DNA from: Escherichia phage vB_EcoS-G3B1
Sequence record: MZ234033.1
Strand: one strand, 5' to 3'
DNA: 51,299 nt
A program made the translations under genes and the position numbers. Position 1 is the stretch's first letter, and each line of letters opens with the position of its first letter. Positions 1,854-21,133 of this stretch are shown in pieces. A model generated the notes under the pieces. It searched no databases, was not told the DNA's origin, and worked only from the letters and a program-made list of their open reading frames with translations.

Positions 1854-2393
1854 ATGAAAAAATACACTTTCGAACTATGGGGCAAGAAGTACGAATTAAT
1901 AACCAGCAAGCCGATTGTTATCGTTGACCTGGACGGCACACTATCGGACGGATCGCATCGTTTGCATTTGCTGCCAACTGAAAACTTGCACCTTACGGAG
2001 TCGTGGAGCGAATTTAACAGGGCCGCCGCCGGAGATTCACCGATTAAAAGCACGATCGCGGTTATTAACGGTTTGTGGGTGTCGGGATTTGCCATCGTCA
2101 TCTTGACCGGACGCAGCGAAGAGGTGCGCTATGAAACCTGCAAATGGTTGAATGAGAGCGGCGTGAAGTTTGACGAAATCATCATGCGCCGCCAGGAGGA
2201 CAACCGAAAGGATACGGTTATTAAAGAAGAAGCCTTGCGCGCTATTGGCCTGGACAATATTGTTTGCGCCTTTGACGATTCGCCGAACGTTGTTAAGCAC
2301 TTCCGCAGCCTGGGAATCACAACCTATCAGGTCACGGAATACGACAAGCCGCACGCTCACCTGCAATCTCACGGCGTGGAGTGTTTAAAATGA
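1854..2393 (+). CDS. Polynucleotide 3'-phosphatase, HAD family (T4 Pnkp phosphatase-domain-like)
   Basis: DxDGT motif (VIVDLDGTL), TGRSEE and RRQEDNRKDTVIKEE segments, C-terminal AFDDSPNVV; resembles the phosphatase half of T4 Pnkp from memory. Confidence 0.7.
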   Translation: MKKYTFELWGKKYELITSKPIVIVDLDGTLSDGSHRLHLLPTENLHLTESWSEFNRAAAGDSPIKSTIAVINGLWVSGFAIVILTGRSEEVRYETCKWLNESGVKFDEIIMRRQEDNRKDTVIKEEALRAIGLDNIVCAFDDSPNVVKHFRSLGITTYQVTEYDKPHAHLQSHGVECLK

Positions 2394-15398: not shown

Positions 15399-15818
15399 AT
15401 GGTAGATGAATTTTACACAGACGCTGAAATCGTTCAGCAAATCGTAAAGTTGGCCCCACCAATGCAGCAGGTTGATCCCGATTTAATTGTGGCATGGATT
15501 GAGCTTGCTAAAGAATTTGTTTGCAAAAAACGGTTTAAAAACTCATACCCGAAAGCGGTTGCGCTTTACACTCTTCACCTTATGACCTTAGACGGGGCAA
15601 TGAAACAGGAAGGTGAAAGCGTAGAAAGCTATTCCCGCCGCGTTGCATCGTTCACTCTGACTGGTGAGTTTAGTCAGACGTTTGATCGAATTTCTTCCGA
15701 TACAAGCGGAAAGCAGATCCGACAAACGCCGTGGGGCAAAATGTACGAAGTGTTAAACCGTAAGCACGGTGGCGGCTTTGGACTTGTAACTGGATTGCGC
15801 CGGAGATGTTGCCGATGA
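15399..15818 (+). CDS. Head-tail connector/adaptor protein (putative)
   Basis: RBS CTGGAGAAAACAAA before ATG 15399; position in neck module. Confidence 0.4.
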
Positions 15819-16189
15819 ATTACAATGAGATTGCAAGAATGGCTACTGCTGGGATTAACTTTTTCAGCGACGCTAACGGTATGTTTAAGTGCATCACGCA
15901 GCAGGGAGGGGTTGAGATTATCGGCGGAGAGGAAGTTACCAAGCCTGAGATTTCAGTGATGATAAAGGGGCTTGTTAGATCTCCGAGGACTAGAGAGGTT
16001 GACGGTGAAACGATCCGAGTAACCGACAAGTTGGGGGTATTCACCAATGAAACTGAGATCAAAAATGGTTATCAGATTGAAATTGATGGCGATCGTTATG
16101 TTGTCGTTGAAGCAAGACCAGTCAGACAGACTAACATCACGGCAGCTTATCGTCCGATATTAAGGAGGATTGCAGTGCATGGCGGATAA
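15806..16189 (+). CDS. Head-tail joining protein (putative)
   Basis: Overlapping start; neck module position. Confidence 0.4.
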
Positions 16190-16622: not shown

Positions 16623-17013
16623 TTTAATGTTAGCGGCAAGAAAGGCGCTGGCGGAGGAATATGAATCACGATTCAAGATCGCCTATGAAAACGTTGATTT
16701 TGTTCCTCCTGGTGATGGTTCGATGTGGTTAAAATTTGACTACATGGAAGCCGACACAGATCGCATATCTCTTGATAGAAAATGCGTTTCTTATATCGGA
16801 TTGGTTCAGGTTGGAATTGTTATGCCTCCTGGCGGCGGCACTGATAAAGCGCGTTTGCTGGCTAAAGAGATTGCGAGATTTTTCTATGATGGTAGAATGT
16901 TTGAAACTGGCTATATTAGCGAGGGGGCAAACGTCCACGCATTACTAAAAAGTGAAACAGGTTGGTTCTTACCGATCCGTTTCAGTGTTAGGCTTGACAC
17001 AAAGGAGGAATAA
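16612..17013 (+). CDS. Tail terminator-like protein (putative)
   Basis: Position immediately upstream of major tail protein. Confidence 0.4.
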   Translation: MHYDLMLAARKALAEEYESRFKIAYENVDFVPPGDGSMWLKFDYMEADTDRISLDRKCVSYIGLVQVGIVMPPGGGTDKARLLAKEIARFFYDGRMFETGYISEGANVHALLKSETGWFLPIRFSVRLDTKEE

Positions 17014-17015
17014 TC

Positions 17016-17678
17016 ATGCACTTGCCTAATGGTTCTCAAATTTTCATCGGCGTTAATATGGGTGAGCCAATTAGCGCGACTCAAATCAGCAATGCTGATA
17101 ATCCTGTTTTTACAACCGAAAACACTCAAAGCATCAAAAAAGGCGCTTATGTTCTTATTGAAACATCTTCTTGGGGCAAACTTGTTAGTCGAGTGCTTCG
17201 AGTTAAGGAAGTATCAGATAATGTAAGTGTTACTCTTGAGGGTGTTAGCACTAAAGATACAAACGTATTTCCAGAAGGACAGAACACAGCAACTTTCCGA
17301 GAAGTGAAATCTTGGGTAGAGGTTCCTTGCGTACAGGATCTTGCGCAGGACGGCGGCGAGCAACAGTATTACACTTATCAGTGTTTGGCTGATGACCAGG
17401 AGCAGCAGTTGCCGACCTACAAGAGCGCGGTTTCTCTTACCTACACTTTCGCTCATGAATATGATAACCCGATTTATCCGATCTTGCGCGAGGCTGAGGA
17501 ATCCGGCGACGTAACCGCTTTGCGTATGTACGTGCCGAAAGCTAAAGAGATGCGTTGCTGGGCTGGCGTATTGTCTTTTAATGACATTCCGCAAACAACT
17601 ATGAACGAAATGGAAACTGTTTCCCTTTCTGTATCTCTGAAAGGCCGATTCACGTTCTTACCTTCCGACGTTAAGTAA
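17016..17678 (+). CDS. Major tail protein (putative)
   Basis: RBS AAGGAGG before ATG; followed by strong terminator, then chaperone and tape measure genes. Confidence 0.5.
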   Translation: MHLPNGSQIFIGVNMGEPISATQISNADNPVFTTENTQSIKKGAYVLIETSSWGKLVSRVLRVKEVSDNVSVTLEGVSTKDTNVFPEGQNTATFREVKSWVEVPCVQDLAQDGGEQQYYTYQCLADDQEQQLPTYKSAVSLTYTFAHEYDNPIYPILREAEESGDVTALRMYVPKAKEMRCWAGVLSFNDIPQTTMNEMETVSLSVSLKGRFTFLPSDVK

Positions 17679-17681
17679 AAC

Positions 17682-17705
17682 AAGGGGCGTTGCGCCCCTT
17701 TTTTC
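17682..17705 (+). terminator. Rho-independent terminator after major tail gene
   Basis: Hairpin GGGGCGTTGCGCCCC then TTTTTTC. Confidence 0.65.
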
Positions 17706-17744
17706 ATTCCTGTAAAATCAATCTATCAAATAAATTAATTCCAC

Positions 17745-17763
17745 TTTTAACAAAAAGTGCTAT
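17745..17763 (+). promoter_or_regulatory. Inverted cassette motif (TTTTAACAAAAAGTGCTAT) abutting RBS of tail chaperone gene
   Basis: Reverse-complement form of dispersed motif followed directly by AAGGAGA and ATG 17778. Confidence 0.5.
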
Positions 17764-17777
17764 AAGGAGATCTTAAG

Positions 17778-18095
17778 ATGGCAAAGATGAAACTAACGTT
17801 AGGCCCACTGCCTGATTTTAAGCTGCCTGTTTCTTTCGTGCTTCCAAATGGTGATGAGCAAGTTATTGTTTTTACCGTGCGCCACAAGAAGGCAAGCGAA
17901 ATTCACGAACGATACACGGCAGAAAAGCCGATGAGCGACGTAGAAATGATCACCTTCCTTGCTTCCGGTTGGGATCTGGAAGATGAATTTAACGAGGAAA
18001 ACGTTGCTAAATTGCTGGATTATTACCCGTCTGCGTCATTATCGCTGACTGGTCATTATATGAAAGCACTTGCGGGGCAGCGGGTAAAAAACTAA
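17778..18095 (+). CDS. Tail assembly chaperone (lambda G-like)
   Basis: Position between major tail and tape measure genes; ends in slippery heptamer. Confidence 0.65.
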   Translation: MAKMKLTLGPLPDFKLPVSFVLPNGDEQVIVFTVRHKKASEIHERYTAEKPMSDVEMITFLASGWDLEDEFNEENVAKLLDYYPSASLSLTGHYMKALAGQRVKN

Positions 18096-18412
18096 AGCGG
18101 GCGGTTTACCTGTTTTACCTCAAGCCGCCAACTGACGCACAATTAGAGGCCGTCGGCCTATCCCGTTCAGACTACGAAGGGGAGGAGCCGCCGGAGGTAA
18201 TTTTTGATGAATCAATGTTTCAATCTTGGGATCTGTTTTGCGCTATGCAGACGCAATGGAGATCGACTAGCGGCAGTGTGTATGGGTTCGACTATAACGT
18301 TTTGCCTATGCTTTTTGACATTTACAAGATTGAGGATCGGGAGATGGCGCTAAATGATTTGCGCATCATGGAACAAAAGGCGCTAGAAATGATTCATTCA
18401 AACAAAACATAA
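17778..18412 (+). CDS. Tail assembly chaperone frameshift-extension product (lambda GT-like; -1 shift at 18086-18092)
   Basis: A_AAA_AAC heptamer at 18086-18092 just before stop 18093-18095; -1 frame stays open (hand-translated, no stops) through ORF 18215..18412. Confidence 0.6.
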
Positions 18413-18432
18413 GCGCCGCGAGGCGCTTTTTT
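18411..18432 (+). terminator. Hairpin plus T-run before tape measure gene
   Basis: AGCGCCGCGAGGCGCT then TTTTTT. Confidence 0.45.
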
Positions 18433-18451
18433 AATATCTGGAGGTTTTAAA

Positions 18452-21133
18452 ATGGCTGAAAAATACGCTGGCCTAACGCTAGGCGTTGACGTGTCGCAGG
18501 TCAACAATGCTGTTAAATCATTGCAGCAATTCAAGAAGGCAAACGACGACGCAAAAAAAAGCGTTAATGAATTTGTTGATTCTGAGGTTGTGGCCCGACA
18601 GCAAGCAAAACAGCTTGCCGAAGAACTGGCGCGCCAGAAAGCAGAATTTAAGAAAATCCAGGAGTCAATTGATCCCACTGCATCAAAGATGGATAAGCTG
18701 CGAAAGGCAGCGACACAGCTTGATGCGCTATGGAAAAAGGGCGTTGTTCCTGATCAGACTTTTTTTGAGCTTGGGGCAATTCTTGAGACGCAGCAAAACA
18801 AGCTGATCGCAACCAAAAAAGCGATGACAGAGGAAGGCCGCGCGGCGCTTGAGGAATCAAAGAACAAGGCGCGTGCAGCGGAAGAGGCTAAAAAATTCGT
18901 CCAGGCTTTGCGTGAGCAGGAAGAAGCAGCAGGAAAAAGCAAGTCTGAATTGCTGGAAATGAAAGCGGCACAGCTTGGAGTTAGCCAGGAGGCAGCACCT
19001 TACATCGCAAGGCTGAAAGAGCAGGAAAAGCAGATCCAGAAACTTGGGATTTCTACAGGCCAATACAAACAAGCAATGGCGCAATTGCCAATGCAGATCA
19101 CAGACGTGGTGACTTCACTTGCTTCTGGTATGCCAGTTTGGTTGGTCGCAGTCCAGCAGGGTGGACAGATCAAGGATTCTTTTGGTGGTGCATCCAATGC
19201 TTTAAAAGCGTTGCTATCTTTCCTGAATCCGGTAAACGTGGCGTTTGGCTTGCTTTCCGGCACGCTGGCAATTGCTGCATATAATGCCTACAAAGCACAG
19301 ACAGAGCTTGAGGCAATTAAAAAAACCGTTCAGGAAACAACTGGCTTGAGTGGTGAGTTTGCCGAAAAGATTGCTATAGGAATCCAGGAGCTTTCCGACA
19401 AGACAGGCGAAAGCGCCGAAGATCTGGCAAAGGCTTACATAACAACGAAAGACGGCGCGAGCGAGGCGATTAAAAAACTGGTTGACGTTGGGATGACTTA
19501 TGATGACGCAAAAAAGAAAGTCAACGAGTACAAGGGCGCGTCTAGCTTTGTCAGCTTGAATAACGAAATTGCAAACCACAAAAACAAAGTCCTTGAGTTG
19601 GGCGATTCGTGGTATGAGGTTTTGAAAGCGAAGCGTGATTACGCTTCCCCGTCCGGCGGCCTGTTAGGTAAGGAGCTTGGCTATGTTAACCCTATGCTTA
19701 AGTTTGCACTTAACACTTATGAAGACATTGGAAAGGTCGTAAAAGATGCGAATAAGGACATGGCGGAACGAGCGGAGCGAATCGACAAAGAAAACCTGGC
19801 CTTAAACAGAGTGCGCGCAGCACAGGAGGCTTTAAACAAAGCCATTGAGGATCAGAAAAATGTGGCGCGTTCGGCTGATGAAGAACTGAAAAAGCGCGCG
19901 GCTGAAAACGTGGAGTTTAGGCGCAAAGAGCTTGAGGAAATCAAGAAGCAGGAGCAGAAAAAGAAAGAGGCTAAAGGGGGAATAGTTCGCGGCCCTACTG
20001 AGCAGCTTGATAAAGAGTTGTACGTTTTAAAGGCGCAACTGGAAACTCTTAAAGAGCATCGCACTGTTAACGATGTTATTTCTCGCCAGCGTAAATCTTT
20101 ATGGAGCATCGAAAAGCAGATCGAGATCCTGGAGAATGCGCAGAGCAAGCGTAAATTGACCGGAGCGGAACAGGCGCTACTAAACGAGCAAAAGGCCGTT
20201 CTTGAAATGGCAAGACAAAAAGCTGAGCTAGGGGATCAGATTGTTTTGCAGGAGCGCAAAAACAAGCTGGAGCAAGATAGTATTAAGTTTATCCGTGAAA
20301 CTGAGGCTGCTATTGATGCGATTGGCCTTAAGCAACTTGGATACACTGAAAAGCAGATCGAGCGTGAGCTAGAGTTACGCAAGCTGCGCACCGACTACGA
20401 GGCGCAAGGCGGAAGCGTTAGCGACGAAGTTTTTCAGCAAATGGAGACGAAACTTAAGCTGTATTACCAGGCACAAGACGAGGCGCAAGGCAACTGGTTA
20501 GCCGGAGCAAAGAACGCATGGGAGCTATTCGCGGAAGATGCAAACAATGCCTATGGCAATGTTCAGCAGATCGCAAGCGAGGCGTTAAACGGCCTTACAA
20601 ACCAATTAGCGAATTTTATCGCTACTGGCAAGGCAAACTTTAAAGACTTCTCGACGGCTATCATCAAAATGATTATTCAGATGATCACGAAAATGGTCGT
20701 CTTTAATGCGTTATCTGGCCTGATGGGTGGTCAAACCTGGACGATGGGGAGCTTGCTTAAGAATATTGGCGGATTTGCTGGCGGTGGATACACTGGCGAC
20801 GGCGGGAAGTATGAGCCAGCCGGAATTGTCCATAAAGGTGAATTTGTCATGACGAAGGAGGCGACGCAGCGTATTGGGGTAGGAAACTTGTACCGCATGA
20901 TGCGAGGCTATGCTAACGGCGGCGTTGTTGGTAGTTCCGGCTATACTGGCGGTGGCGCTGTAACTGGTGGAGCACCTCAATTTAACATCGGCGGGATTGA
21001 TGTTAGCATCACTAACGGAAACGATCCGAAGGGCATCGAAACTGGTGTTAAGATGATCTTTACTGATATGATTAAACGTTCCTGTATGCAGGGCGGCGAG
21101 GTTTACGAATTTGTTATGAGCAAGCGAGGTTGA
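18452..21133 (+). CDS. Tail tape measure protein
   Basis: 893 aa, long coiled-coil-like charged regions, glycine-rich C-terminal part; precedes M-L-K-I-J genes. Confidence 0.85.
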   Translation: MAEKYAGLTLGVDVSQVNNAVKSLQQFKKANDDAKKSVNEFVDSEVVARQQAKQLAEELARQKAEFKKIQESIDPTASKMDKLRKAATQLDALWKKGVVPDQTFFELGAILETQQNKLIATKKAMTEEGRAALEESKNKARAAEEAKKFVQALREQEEAAGKSKSELLEMKAAQLGVSQEAAPYIARLKEQEKQIQKLGISTGQYKQAMAQLPMQITDVVTSLASGMPVWLVAVQQGGQIKDSFGGASNALKALLSFLNPVNVAFGLLSGTLAIAAYNAYKAQTELEAIKKTVQETTGLSGEFAEKIAIGIQELSDKTGESAEDLAKAYITTKDGASEAIKKLVDVGMTYDDAKKKVNEYKGASSFVSLNNEIANHKNKVLELGDSWYEVLKAKRDYASPSGGLLGKELGYVNPMLKFALNTYEDIGKVVKDANKDMAERAERIDKENLALNRVRAAQEALNKAIEDQKNVARSADEELKKRAAENVEFRRKELEEIKKQEQKKKEAKGGIVRGPTEQLDKELYVLKAQLETLKEHRTVNDVISRQRKSLWSIEKQIEILENAQSKRKLTGAEQALLNEQKAVLEMARQKAELGDQIVLQERKNKLEQDSIKFIRETEAAIDAIGLKQLGYTEKQIERELELRKLRTDYEAQGGSVSDEVFQQMETKLKLYYQAQDEAQGNWLAGAKNAWELFAEDANNAYGNVQQIASEALNGLTNQLANFIATGKANFKDFSTAIIKMIIQMITKMVVFNALSGLMGGQTWTMGSLLKNIGGFAGGGYTGDGGKYEPAGIVHKGEFVMTKEATQRIGVGNLYRMMRGYANGGVVGSSGYTGGGAVTGGAPQFNIGGIDVSITNGNDPKGIETGVKMIFTDMIKRSCMQGGEVYEFVMSKRG

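What the first reader, a model, noticed from the sequence alone, without database searches (positions are those of the whole stretch)
18086..18412. Programmed -1 frameshift site in the tail assembly chaperone gene (lambda G/GT-type)
The chaperone ORF ends with heptamer A_AAA_AAC (18086-18092) immediately before its stop (18093-18095). The -1 frame is open from 18092 through the downstream ORF to 18412 (hand-translated, no stop codons), so a fusion of about 210 aa would be made. This conserved recoding device is directly visible here.
Basis: partly seen in the sequence, partly recalled or inferred. Interest (0 to 1): 0.5.

Follow-up and report, generated by a model that had tools for sequence, protein, structure and literature searches.

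The report
Tail chaperone G/GT ribosomal frameshift site
This is the standard "slippery" spot where a few ribosomes slip back one base at the end of a T1-like coliphage's tail-assembly chaperone gene to make a longer second protein; it is real and well conserved, but already known for this phage family.

Summary
The 105-codon tail assembly chaperone ORF (17778-18095, Pfam Phage_TAC_4) ends ...GTA AAA AAC TAA. The heptamer A_AAA_AAC (18086-18092) is in the X_XXY_YYZ phase and abuts the stop. The -1 frame is open from 18011 to 18412 and adds 106 codons (DUF1799), giving a 211-aa, 24.3-kDa fusion.

The gene lies between the major tail gene and the tape measure gene. The window is a Warwickvirus (Drexlerviridae) coliphage, 100% identical here to phage tonn.

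In 53 of 57 relatives kept for analysis, the heptamer plus an adjacent stop is unchanged while neighbouring wobble positions vary freely. Third-position variability switches from the 0 frame to the -1 frame exactly at the heptamer. The -1 peptide (LKRAVYL..KPPTD) is conserved from its first codon, yet there is no start codon before ATG 18215, and that ATG has no ribosome-binding site.

A hairpin 7 nt downstream (18100-18129) is more stable than synonymous recoding predicts (z = -3.3). It is a likely stimulator, present only in some lineages.

The frameshift is already annotated or described in relatives: Stevie, OzMSK and Skenny. One correction: canonical tandem slippage predicts the junction ...QRVKN|LKRAVY, not VKK. 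Verdict: genuine, ordinary, already known.

The parts
17016..17678 (+). Major tail (tube) protein gene, upstream neighbour (context)
   Evidence: Pfam Phage_tail_3, E = 2e-62. Annotated as major tail protein in relatives.
17682..17700 (+). Terminator-like hairpin with T-run between the tube gene and the chaperone gene
   Evidence: 8-bp stem with 6 GC pairs, followed by TTTTTCATT. A rho-independent terminator is annotated at the same place in T1, Stevie and Sip.
17764..17769 (+). Shine-Dalgarno AAGGAG of the chaperone gene, 8 nt before ATG 17778
   Evidence: Read directly from the sequence.
17778..18095 (+). Gene G analogue: tail assembly (tape measure) chaperone, 105 aa, 11.9 kDa; the product of normal decoding
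   Evidence: ORF. Pfam Phage_TAC_4, E = 5e-31, full length. phrog_17368 and phrog_569. Molecular weight.
18086..18092 (+). Slippery heptamer A_AAA_AAC (0-frame codons AAA 18087-89 and AAC 18090-92)
   Evidence: Phase verified. Identical in 53 of 57 relatives kept for analysis; the other 4 are the 'GCA AAG GTC TAA' lineage. Its three wobble-equivalent positions are invariant outside the JK06 lineage, while 0 of 42 other wobble positions are invariant.
18093..18095 (+). Zero-frame stop TAA directly abutting the heptamer
   Evidence: TAA in all relatives that have the heptamer, or TGA in two of them. Only A/G changes occur at the middle base, and both keep a stop.
18100..18129 (+). Candidate stimulatory hairpin. 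5' arm GGCGGTTT 18100-18107, 14-nt loop, 3' arm AAGCCGCC 18122-18129; it starts 7 nt after the heptamer
   Evidence: Minimum-free-energy structure of -13.2 kcal/mol against -4.6 +/- 2.6 for 2000 synonymous recodings, z = -3.3, fraction at least as stable 0.0045 (fold). Present and stronger (-14 to -20 kcal/mol) in 25 of 35 other distinct relatives, T1 included. Stem wobble entropy 0.83 against 1.39 bits elsewhere, p = 0.001. Covariation is weak.
18092..18412 (+). -1-frame extension (T analogue): 106 codons plus TAA 18410-12, reachable only by the shift. Fusion GT = join(17778..18092, 18092..18412), 211 aa, 24.3 kDa
   Evidence: Open frame. Pfam DUF1799 over residues 23-101, E = 1.5e-12. phrog_17368 positions 109-211 and phrog_680 from residue 9. 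The peptide LKRAVYL.Y.KPPTD.. is conserved from codon 1 in all relatives. Variability is highest at the third position of the -1 frame: 1.16 against 0.40 and 0.26 bits.
18215..18217 (+). First start codon in the -1 frame (Met at codon 42 of the extension); the start used by annotators for a separate 65-aa ORF
   Evidence: No ATG/GTG/TTG lies in this frame from 18011 to 18214. The nearest GGAGG (18193-97) is 17 nt upstream, and no SD-like motif lies at -16..-5 in any of 51 distinct relatives.
18411..18428 (+). Terminator-like hairpin overlapping the end of the T frame, before the tape measure gene
   Evidence: 7-bp stem followed by TTTTTAATA. Annotated as a terminator in T1, Stevie, Sip and Motto.
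18452..21133 (+). Tape measure protein gene, downstream neighbour (context); GGAGG 18440-44 lies 7 nt before its ATG
   Evidence: Pfam TMP_2, E = 8e-36, and Tape_meas_lam_C, E = 2e-22. Sequence read.

Best explanation
This is a programmed -1 ribosomal frameshift in the tail assembly chaperone gene of a T1-like (Drexlerviridae, Warwickvirus) coliphage.

Most ribosomes read 17778-18092, terminate at TAA 18093 and release the 105-aa chaperone G. A minority slip back one nucleotide on A_AAA_AAC. In that slip, tRNA-Lys moves from AAA 18087-89 to 18086-88, and tRNA-Asn moves from AAC 18090-92 to AAA 18089-91. These ribosomes then read CUA AAG CGG... from 18092 and make a 211-aa fusion, GT, with junction ...QRVKN|LKRAVY....

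The slip is probably helped by an 8-bp hairpin that starts 7 nt downstream (18100-18129). The stop codon directly after the heptamer may also help.

By analogy with lambda, the shared G part binds the tape measure protein and the T part recruits the tail tube protein. The low frameshift rate would then set a high G:GT ratio needed for correct tail assembly, with neither protein ending up in the virion.

Shown here: the anatomy, the coding status of the -1 extension, its dependence on a frame change, and conservation of the site. Inferred: the ribosomal mechanism (as opposed to RNA polymerase slippage), the efficiency (a guess of a few percent or less, because AAC is a weaker A-site shifter than AAG in E. 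coli), the role of the hairpin, and the assembly functions.
For: 1. Anatomy.

2. Gene identity and position: Phage_TAC_4 lies between Phage_tail_3 and TMP_2/Tape_meas_lam_C.

3. The -1 extension is a real protein domain with no start of its own. DUF1799 matches from residue 23, phrog_680 from residue 9, and phrog_17368 spans G (1-107) and T (109-211) contiguously. There is no ATG/GTG/TTG before codon 42, no conserved earlier start in 51 distinct relatives, and no SD for the codon-42 Met.

4. Comparative evidence. A_AAA_AAC followed by a stop is identical in Tempevirinae, Tunavirinae (T1 included), Braunvirinae and Eclunavirus at down to about 65% DNA identity. Third-position variability is in the 0 frame upstream of the heptamer (1.56 against 0.66 and 0.45 bits) and in the -1 frame downstream (1.16 against 0.40 and 0.26 bits). 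The -1 peptide is conserved from the first codon after the heptamer.

5. One Rogunavirinae lineage (JK06, Sf12, Opt-79) replaces the heptamer with GC A_AAG GTC TAA. A_AAG is the best -1 tetramer in E. coli (PMC4066793), and an A3 run is too short for polymerase stuttering. This favours a ribosomal mechanism for the family.

6. Hairpin: synonymous-shuffle z = -3.3 here and -3 to -5 in 25 of 35 other distinct relatives. Stem wobble positions are less variable than others, p = 0.001.

7. Precedent. A_AAA_AAC is a proven -1 site in E. coli in IS1 (PMC4066793) and is used for g-t in HCTV-2 (PMC5009743). The joined CDS is annotated in Stevie and OzMSK and described in PMC4319613 and PMC6763657.
Against: There is no experimental evidence for this phage or, as far as I found, for any T1-like phage. 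Every line of evidence is sequence-based.

AAC is a 'heterogeneous' A-site codon and a weaker shifter than AAG or AAA in E. coli (PMC4066793), so efficiency may be low.

The hairpin is absent in several lineages that keep the heptamer: Henuseptimavirus, Braunvirinae, Rogunavirinae, Eclunavirus, CRES7 and L061. It is therefore not essential. Its covariation support is weak: 5 double-change cells, and the sequences are related. In this window it is the weakest version, because CAG became CTC and removed the inner stem.

No conserved upstream SD-like stimulator is apparent by eye: the Ala-Gly codons ahead of the heptamer vary between relatives (GCGGGG, GCAGGG, GCTGGT). Most GenBank records of this genus annotate two separate ORFs or only G.
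Confidence: 0.9

Rival explanations
1. There is no recoding. The downstream ORF is translated independently from ATG 18215 as a 65-aa protein, as most GenBank records of this genus annotate it, and the heptamer is coincidental.
For: ATG 18215 is the only start in the frame, and this Met is conserved in nearly all relatives. JLBYU19, PeterMerian and Sip annotate a separate 198-nt CDS. The OzMSK record notes an 'independent RBS' for its T part. A heptamer somewhere in a 28-codon overlap has about a 10% chance.
Against: The 41 codons upstream of the ATG are strongly conserved as protein, with a -1-frame wobble pattern and no start codon. Family profiles align to them. No SD lies 5-16 nt before ATG 18215 in any relative, and GGAGG is 17 nt away, whereas G and the tape measure gene have SDs at 8 and 7 nt. 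The heptamer is invariant where all other wobble sites vary.
Confidence: 0.03
2. The fusion is made by transcriptional slippage. RNA polymerase adds one A in the A6 run (18086-18091), and the A7 mRNA is then decoded normally to give ...QRVKK|LKRAVY..., the junction the first reader wrote.
For: A homopolymeric A6 run is present and invariant. Transcriptional slippage is a documented alternative route to such fusions in bacteria (PMC5009743). Sequence alone cannot separate the two routes.
Against: From my own knowledge, efficient slippage in bacteria generally needs runs of about 8-9 or more A/T. The conserved feature here is the phased heptamer including the final C and its position relative to the codons, not just the run. 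The JK06, Sf12 and Opt-79 lineage keeps the same G/GT arrangement with only AAA in GC_A_AAG, which fits ribosomal slippage and not polymerase slippage. The same A6C motif in IS1 is listed as a proven case of ribosomal -1 frameshifting (PMC4066793). A hairpin at 7 nt is the classical spacing for a ribosomal stimulator.
Confidence: 0.05
3. This is an assembly or sequencing artefact, or a decaying gene. G and T would really be one continuous ORF, with the apparent frame break caused by a homopolymer miscall.
For: Homopolymer runs are error-prone. Three IMG/VR assemblies (L021, L056, L060) show A5 instead of A6 at this site.
Against: More than 50 independently sequenced genomes from four subfamilies have exactly A6C followed by a stop. 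An A7 or A5 version would not give both a G with a normal end and an in-frame T. The three A5 assemblies carry other frame-breaking indels in the same genes, so they are the erroneous ones.
Confidence: 0.01

Closest known systems
Phage lambda G / GT tail assembly chaperones (Levin, Hendrix & Casjens 1993; Xu, Hendrix & Duda 2004, 2013, 2014; summarised in PMC5009743)
   Same: The gene order is the same: tube gene, then chaperone, then a -1 extension, then the tape measure gene. In both, a short product comes from normal decoding and a low-abundance C-terminally extended product comes from a -1 slip on a heptamer near the end of the upstream ORF. The downstream frame lacks its own start. The lambda G:GT ratio of about 30:1 is needed for tail assembly.
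   Different: The heptamer is A_AAA_AAC here, against G_GGA_AAG in lambda (the motif is named in PMC5009743; its use by lambda is from my own knowledge). The Pfam families hit here are Phage_TAC_4 and DUF1799; lambda G and T were not compared directly. Here the zero-frame stop abuts the heptamer, and a hairpin lies 7 nt downstream in many relatives. My recollection, not checked here, is that no stimulator was found for lambda.
Annotated G/GT frameshifts of other T1-like phages: Citrobacter phage Stevie (KM236241, PMC4319613), Escherichia phage OzMSK (PQ659294), Klebsiella phage Skenny (PMC6763657)
   Same: The genes are homologous, with the same heptamer plus TAA and the same -1 peptide LKRAVYL.... 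Stevie and OzMSK carry a two-piece joined CDS named tape measure chaperone. The papers describe a conserved translational frameshift.
   Different: These are different genera, at about 70% DNA identity or less in this region. In the Warwickvirus records examined (tunus RefSeq, JLBYU19, PeterMerian, Sip), the join is not annotated. The window's hairpin lacks the inner CUG/CAG stem that Stevie and T1 have.
IS1 insA-insB' -1 frameshift at A_AAA_AAC
   Same: The slippery heptamer is the same, decoded by E. coli ribosomes. It is a proven, low-efficiency -1 frameshift that makes a fusion protein (PMC4066793).
   Different: The biology is unrelated (a transposase). IS1 has no established stimulator, whereas a downstream hairpin is likely here.
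E. coli dnaX and IS911/IS3-type -1 frameshift cassettes (heptamer plus 3' stem-loop or pseudoknot)
   Same: A lysine-rich A_AAA_AAN heptamer is followed after a short spacer by a GC-rich stem-loop. This is the classical bacterial -1 signal architecture (PMC4066793).
   Different: The A-site codon is AAC rather than AAG. No conserved upstream SD-like enhancer is apparent here by eye. [quoted passage not shown]

Membership tests
Conserved -1 programmed frameshift of dsDNA-phage tail assembly chaperones (lambda G/GT type, Xu et al. 2004) | The two ORFs lie between the major tail (tube) gene and the tape measure gene | tested here: met
   Phage_tail_3 at 17016-17678 and TMP_2 plus Tape_meas_lam_C at 18452-21133. 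Same order in all relatives examined.
Conserved -1 programmed frameshift of dsDNA-phage tail assembly chaperones (lambda G/GT type, Xu et al. 2004) | The upstream ORF is a tail assembly chaperone | tested here: met
   Pfam PF08748 Phage_TAC_4, 107.9 bits against a cutoff of 21.1, full length.
Conserved -1 programmed frameshift of dsDNA-phage tail assembly chaperones (lambda G/GT type, Xu et al. 2004) | The downstream ORF overlaps in the -1 frame and lacks its own initiation signals for its conserved N-terminal part | tested here: met
   The -1 frame is open from 18011 to 18412, an 85-nt overlap. There is no start before codon 42, and 41 conserved codons lie upstream of it. No SD is present.
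Conserved -1 programmed frameshift of dsDNA-phage tail assembly chaperones (lambda G/GT type, Xu et al. 2004) | An in-phase slippery sequence (X_XXY_YYZ) lies inside the overlap and is conserved among relatives | tested here: met
   A_AAA_AAC at 18086-18092. It is invariant in all good-quality relatives except one lineage that uses A_AAG.
Conserved -1 programmed frameshift of dsDNA-phage tail assembly chaperones (lambda G/GT type, Xu et al. 2004) | Purifying selection switches frame at the slip site | tested here: met
   Mean entropy by codon position is 0.66/0.45/1.56 bits (0 frame) upstream and 0.40/0.26/1.16 bits (-1 frame) downstream.
Conserved -1 programmed frameshift of dsDNA-phage tail assembly chaperones (lambda G/GT type, Xu et al. 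2004) | Both G and the GT fusion are actually produced, at a low GT:G ratio, and both are required for tail assembly | not testable with these tools
   This needs a Western blot or mass spectrometry and genetics. No experimental report for a T1-like phage was found in the library searches.
Sequence homology to lambda gpG / gpT themselves | The proteins fall in the same Pfam families as lambda G and T | not tested
   The only Pfam hits are Phage_TAC_4 and DUF1799. Lambda G and T were not compared directly. The resemblance claimed is of mechanism and gene position, not of family.
Bacterial heptamer plus 3' hairpin -1 frameshift cassette (dnaX / IS3-type) | A stable stem-loop starts about 5-9 nt 3' of the heptamer and is maintained by selection | tested here: inconclusive
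   The hairpin starts 7 nt after the heptamer, with synonymous-shuffle z = -3.3 and reduced stem wobble variability, p = 0.001. However, it is absent in 10 of 35 other distinct relatives, and compensatory changes are few.
Bacterial heptamer plus 3' hairpin -1 frameshift cassette (dnaX / IS3-type) | An upstream SD-like enhancer lies 6-17 nt 5' of the heptamer | tested here: not met
   Judged by eye, not with a formal scan. The upstream sequence is GCGGGGCAGCGGGT here, and GCAGGG, GCTGGT or GCCGGA in relatives. No conserved GGAGG- or AGGGAG-like element is visible.

The most novel reading that the evidence does not exclude
The T1-family G/GT signal is more elaborate, and more changeable over evolution, than the bare heptamer usually assumed for phage G/GT sites. 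Three features support this reading. First, the zero-frame stop is kept immediately 3' of the heptamer; only TAA-to-TGA changes are tolerated, although other Leu codons would be synonymous in the -1 frame. Second, a selected stem-loop 7 nt downstream tunes efficiency in Tempevirinae and Tunavirinae but has been lost in other subfamilies. Third, one Rogunavirinae lineage has swapped the heptamer for an A_AAG tetramer. If the hairpin and the abutting stop really set the G:GT ratio, different genera would run different frameshift rates. This Warwickvirus lineage, whose inner stem is broken by a Gln-to-Leu change, would have a lower rate than T1.
Probability: 0.45. Interest if true: 0.3.

Novelty: already known. 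Interest (0 to 1): 0.15.

Why it matters
Mainly for annotation. GenBank and RefSeq records of this genus (tunus, tonn, JLBYU19, PeterMerian, Sip) list either only G or a spurious stand-alone 65-aa 'T' ORF. The correct gene model is join(17778..18092, 18092..18412), which encodes a 211-aa GT protein.

Biologically, this is one more instance of the near-universal tail-chaperone frameshift of long-tailed phages. The only mildly new points are the lineage-specific downstream hairpin, the strictly conserved heptamer-stop juxtaposition, and the tetramer replacement in one subfamily. Together they make this large, well-sampled phage family a convenient natural series for studying how G:GT ratios are tuned.

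Tried and rejected
- Rfam scan of 17900-18500 at E <= 10: only two sub-threshold chance hits and no known frameshift element.
- PDB sequence search with the fusion: nothing relevant. NCBIfam: no family.
- Covariation test of the hairpin: 83.6% of cells are paired against 36-53% in the slid controls, but only 5 double-change cells, so it does not prove structure. The 85-nt fold with a dinucleotide shuffle was not significant (z = -0.9). Only the synonymous-recoding null model was informative.
- Pseudoknot: the loop CCUC (18118-21) could pair with GAGG (about 18146-49). That is only 4 bp, and in relatives the loop is occupied by an inner stem instead, so I rejected it.
- Upstream SD-like stimulator: none is apparent by eye in the aligned upstream sequences.
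- The 0-frame ORF 18204-18353 (ATG 18207, 9 nt after GGAGG 18193-97) looked like a possible hidden gene. In most relatives that frame has a stop about 3 codons after the equivalent ATG, and the ATG arises from the conserved Asp-Glu codons of the -1 frame, so it is spurious.
- Genome-wide scan for other heptamer plus long -1 extension sites. The only similar geometry (T_TTA_AAA at 2384-2390) is an ordinary ATGA start/stop overlap, and the next gene there has its own ATG.
- A literature search for the bare string AAAAAAC was uninformative. The Xu et al. 2013 and 2014 papers are not held in the library, so lambda details come from the review PMC5009743 and from memory.
- First hairpin wobble test: I selected hairpin-bearing sequences by the stem sequence itself, which was circular. 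I redid it on all sequences.

Full report
**What is there**

The window is a T1-like coliphage. Region 17778-18451 is 100% identical to Escherichia phage tonn. The region 17000-18500 is 98-99.9% identical to about 20 other records, and those whose taxonomy was checked are Drexlerviridae; Tempevirinae; Warwickvirus.

ORF 17778-18095 encodes 105 aa and has the SD AAGGAG 8 nt upstream of its ATG. It ends CGG GTA AAA AAC TAA. The heptamer A_AAA_AAC occupies 18086-18092 in the X_XXY_YYZ phase, and TAA 18093-95 abuts it.

The -1 frame is open from 18011 to the TAA at 18410-12.

**Identity of the parts**

- G is a full-length Pfam Phage_TAC_4 tail assembly chaperone (E = 5e-31).
- The gene upstream is the tail tube protein (Phage_tail_3).
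- The gene downstream is the tape measure protein (TMP_2 plus Tape_meas_lam_C).
- The -1 extension matches DUF1799 from its residue 23 and phrog_680 from residue 9.
- The 213-position profile phrog_17368 is matched by G at positions 1-107 and by the extension at 109-211, so that family is built from fused proteins.
- Terminator-like hairpins bracket the unit at 17682-17700 and 18411-18428. T1, Stevie and Sip annotate terminators at the same places.

**Is it more than chance?**

The heptamer string alone is not unusual: 26 copies in the window against 21.9 expected. In-phase heptamers occur about once per 290 ORF codons. What makes this site significant is its context and its conservation.

I collected 19 GenBank loci and 42 IMG/VR loci, reaching down to about 65% DNA identity. 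After removing three poor assemblies, 57 sequences remained. Of these, 53 have AAAAAAC followed at once by TAA (or TGA in two) at the end of G.

Across 48 distinct sequences, all seven heptamer bases are invariant. In a second computation that also includes JK06 (49 distinct sequences), none of 42 other wobble positions within about 60 nt upstream and 100 nt downstream is invariant: mean entropy 1.39 bits, minimum 0.64.

Positional variability has codon periodicity in the 0 frame upstream of the heptamer (0.66/0.45/1.56 bits). It has periodicity in the -1 frame downstream (0.40/0.26/1.16 bits), so the selected reading frame changes exactly at the heptamer.

The -1 peptide LKRAVYL.Y.KPPTD.EL...GL.R.DYE... 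is conserved from its very first codon in every relative.

**Independent translation is not an adequate explanation**

In this window there is no ATG, GTG or TTG in the -1 frame between 18011 and ATG 18215, which is codon 42 of the extension. Among 51 distinct relatives, no earlier start is conserved. In none of them does the codon-42 Met have an SD-like motif 5-16 nt upstream. Here the nearest GGAGG is 17 nt away, whereas G and the tape measure gene have SDs at 8 and 7 nt.

A 0-frame ORF starting at ATG 18207, which does sit 9 nt after that GGAGG, is interrupted in most relatives and is spurious.

**Mechanism**

A_AAA_AAC is a proven -1 site for E. coli ribosomes in IS1, and it is the predicted g-t shift site of the archaeal virus HCTV-2 (PMC4066793; PMC5009743). 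AAC is a 'heterogeneous' A-site codon and therefore a weaker shifter than AAG or AAA. That fits the need for a minor GT product, since lambda's G:GT ratio is about 30:1.

The canonical two-tRNA slip incorporates Asn.

An 8-bp hairpin (GGCGGUUU 18100-07 with AAGCCGCC 18122-29) starts 7 nt after the heptamer. It folds at -13.2 kcal/mol, against -4.6 +/- 2.6 for 2000 recodings that keep the -1 protein sequence and the phage's codon usage (z = -3.3).

In 25 of 35 other distinct relatives, T1 included, the hairpin is extended by an inner CUG/CAG stem to -14 to -20 kcal/mol (z = -3 to -5). The window's lineage lost that inner stem through a Gln-to-Leu change. Wobble positions inside the stem vary less than others (0.83 against 1.39 bits, p = 0.001, all sequences). 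Sites where change is neutral for pairing (A/G opposite U, and the loop) vary freely.

The evidence for the hairpin has limits. Compensatory changes are few. The hairpin is absent in Henuseptimavirus, Braunvirinae, Rogunavirinae, Eclunavirus, CRES7 and L061, all of which keep the frameshift. I therefore rate it as a probable, dispensable stimulator.

The stop abutting the heptamer is also constrained. Only A-to-G changes occur at its middle base, and both keep a stop. It may contribute to the shift. No upstream SD-like element is apparent by eye, and Rfam has nothing for this region.

**Ribosomal versus transcriptional slippage**

Sequence cannot settle this formally. However, five Rogunavirinae-type records (JK06, phiJLA23, e4/1c, Sf12, Opt-79) match this segment at 93-100% identity. 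The three I fetched (JK06, Sf12, Opt-79) keep the same G/GT arrangement with GC A_AAG GTC TAA and the -1 peptide ...RKGLKRAVY.

A_AAG is the best -1 tetramer in E. coli (PMC4066793), and an A3 run cannot support polymerase stuttering. The family as a whole therefore looks ribosomal.

**Relation to what is known**

This is the lambda G/GT device in mechanism and gene position. The Pfam hits here are Phage_TAC_4 and DUF1799, and lambda G/T were not compared directly, so no claim of sequence-family membership is made.

Within the T1 family it is already recognised:
- Citrobacter phage Stevie and Escherichia phage OzMSK carry a two-piece joined 'tape measure chaperone' CDS over the homologous site.
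- The Stevie and Skenny genome papers mention the conserved frameshift.

The Warwickvirus records I inspected, as well as T1's RefSeq record, do not annotate it. They list G only, or G plus a stand-alone C-terminal fragment.

**Verdict**

Confidence is 0.9 that a -1 ribosomal frameshift here produces a 211-aa GT protein. It is a textbook case and already known for this phage family, so interest is low. Its practical value is a corrected gene model, join(17778..18092, 18092..18412). The modest residual novelty lies in the lineage-specific hairpin, the fixed heptamer-stop juxtaposition, and the heptamer-to-tetramer replacement in one subfamily.

Noticed in passing
L014:821-833 (JK06), L063 (Sf12) and L064 (Opt-79), at the end of their G genes: One Rogunavirinae lineage lacks the heptamer. 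G ends GCA AAG GTC TAA, and the -1 frame reads ...RKGLKRAVY. The likely shift site is therefore the tetramer A_AAG, one codon before the last sense codon. The sequence is identical in the three records fetched, and two more (phiJLA23, e4/1c) match the segment at 99.7-100%, so it is not a sequencing error.
   Followed up: partly
L021:1105, L056:1109, L060:1105 (IMG/VR UViG 2974728900, 2974632794, 2706796530): Three viral contigs have A5 instead of A6 at the slip site (GTAAAAACTAAAA), plus other frame-breaking indels in G or T. They look like homopolymer sequencing errors, not natural variants.
   Followed up: partly
window 17682-17700 and 18411-18428: The G/GT cistron is bracketed by two intrinsic-terminator-like hairpins with T-runs. 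One follows the tube gene and one overlaps the T stop just before the tape measure gene. T1, Stevie, Sip and Motto annotate terminators at the same places. This may be partial termination that sets the tube : chaperone : tape-measure stoichiometry.
   Followed up: partly
window 18204-18353 (+): A 49-codon ORF lies in the G (0) frame. Its ATG 18207 sits 9 nt after GGAGG 18193-97, so it looks like a good start. It is not conserved: most relatives have a stop about 3 codons later. The ATG is a by-product of the conserved Asp-Glu codons of the -1 frame.
   Followed up: yes
window 2384-2393 (+): T_TTA_AAA is in phase at the end of ORF 1839-2393, with 53 open -1 codons after it. This mimics a frameshift site, but it is an ordinary ATGA start/stop overlap: the next ORF has its own ATG at 2390.
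   Followed up: yes
window 15806-16189 (homologue at L001:316-690 and L002:316-690): A small ORF in the head-tail joining module is annotated 'ribonucleoside-triphosphate reductase' in JLBYU19 and in RefSeq tunus. That is implausible for a protein of about 125 aa in this position, so it is probably a propagated misannotation.
   Followed up: no
L009 (MG065679, 'Campylobacter phage A13a', UNVERIFIED); also MG065680 and MG065687: About 20 records labelled Campylobacter jejuni phages are Hanrivervirus-like Drexlerviridae, 72-74% identical to this E. coli phage region. The host attribution looks doubtful.
   Followed up: no
L018 (MW032452, Enterobacter phage N5822, 78 kb 'circular'): G is truncated at 89 aa by a frame break, and the tape measure gene is split into pieces. 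The record length is also atypical for the family. It is probably a low-quality or chimeric assembly.
   Followed up: no
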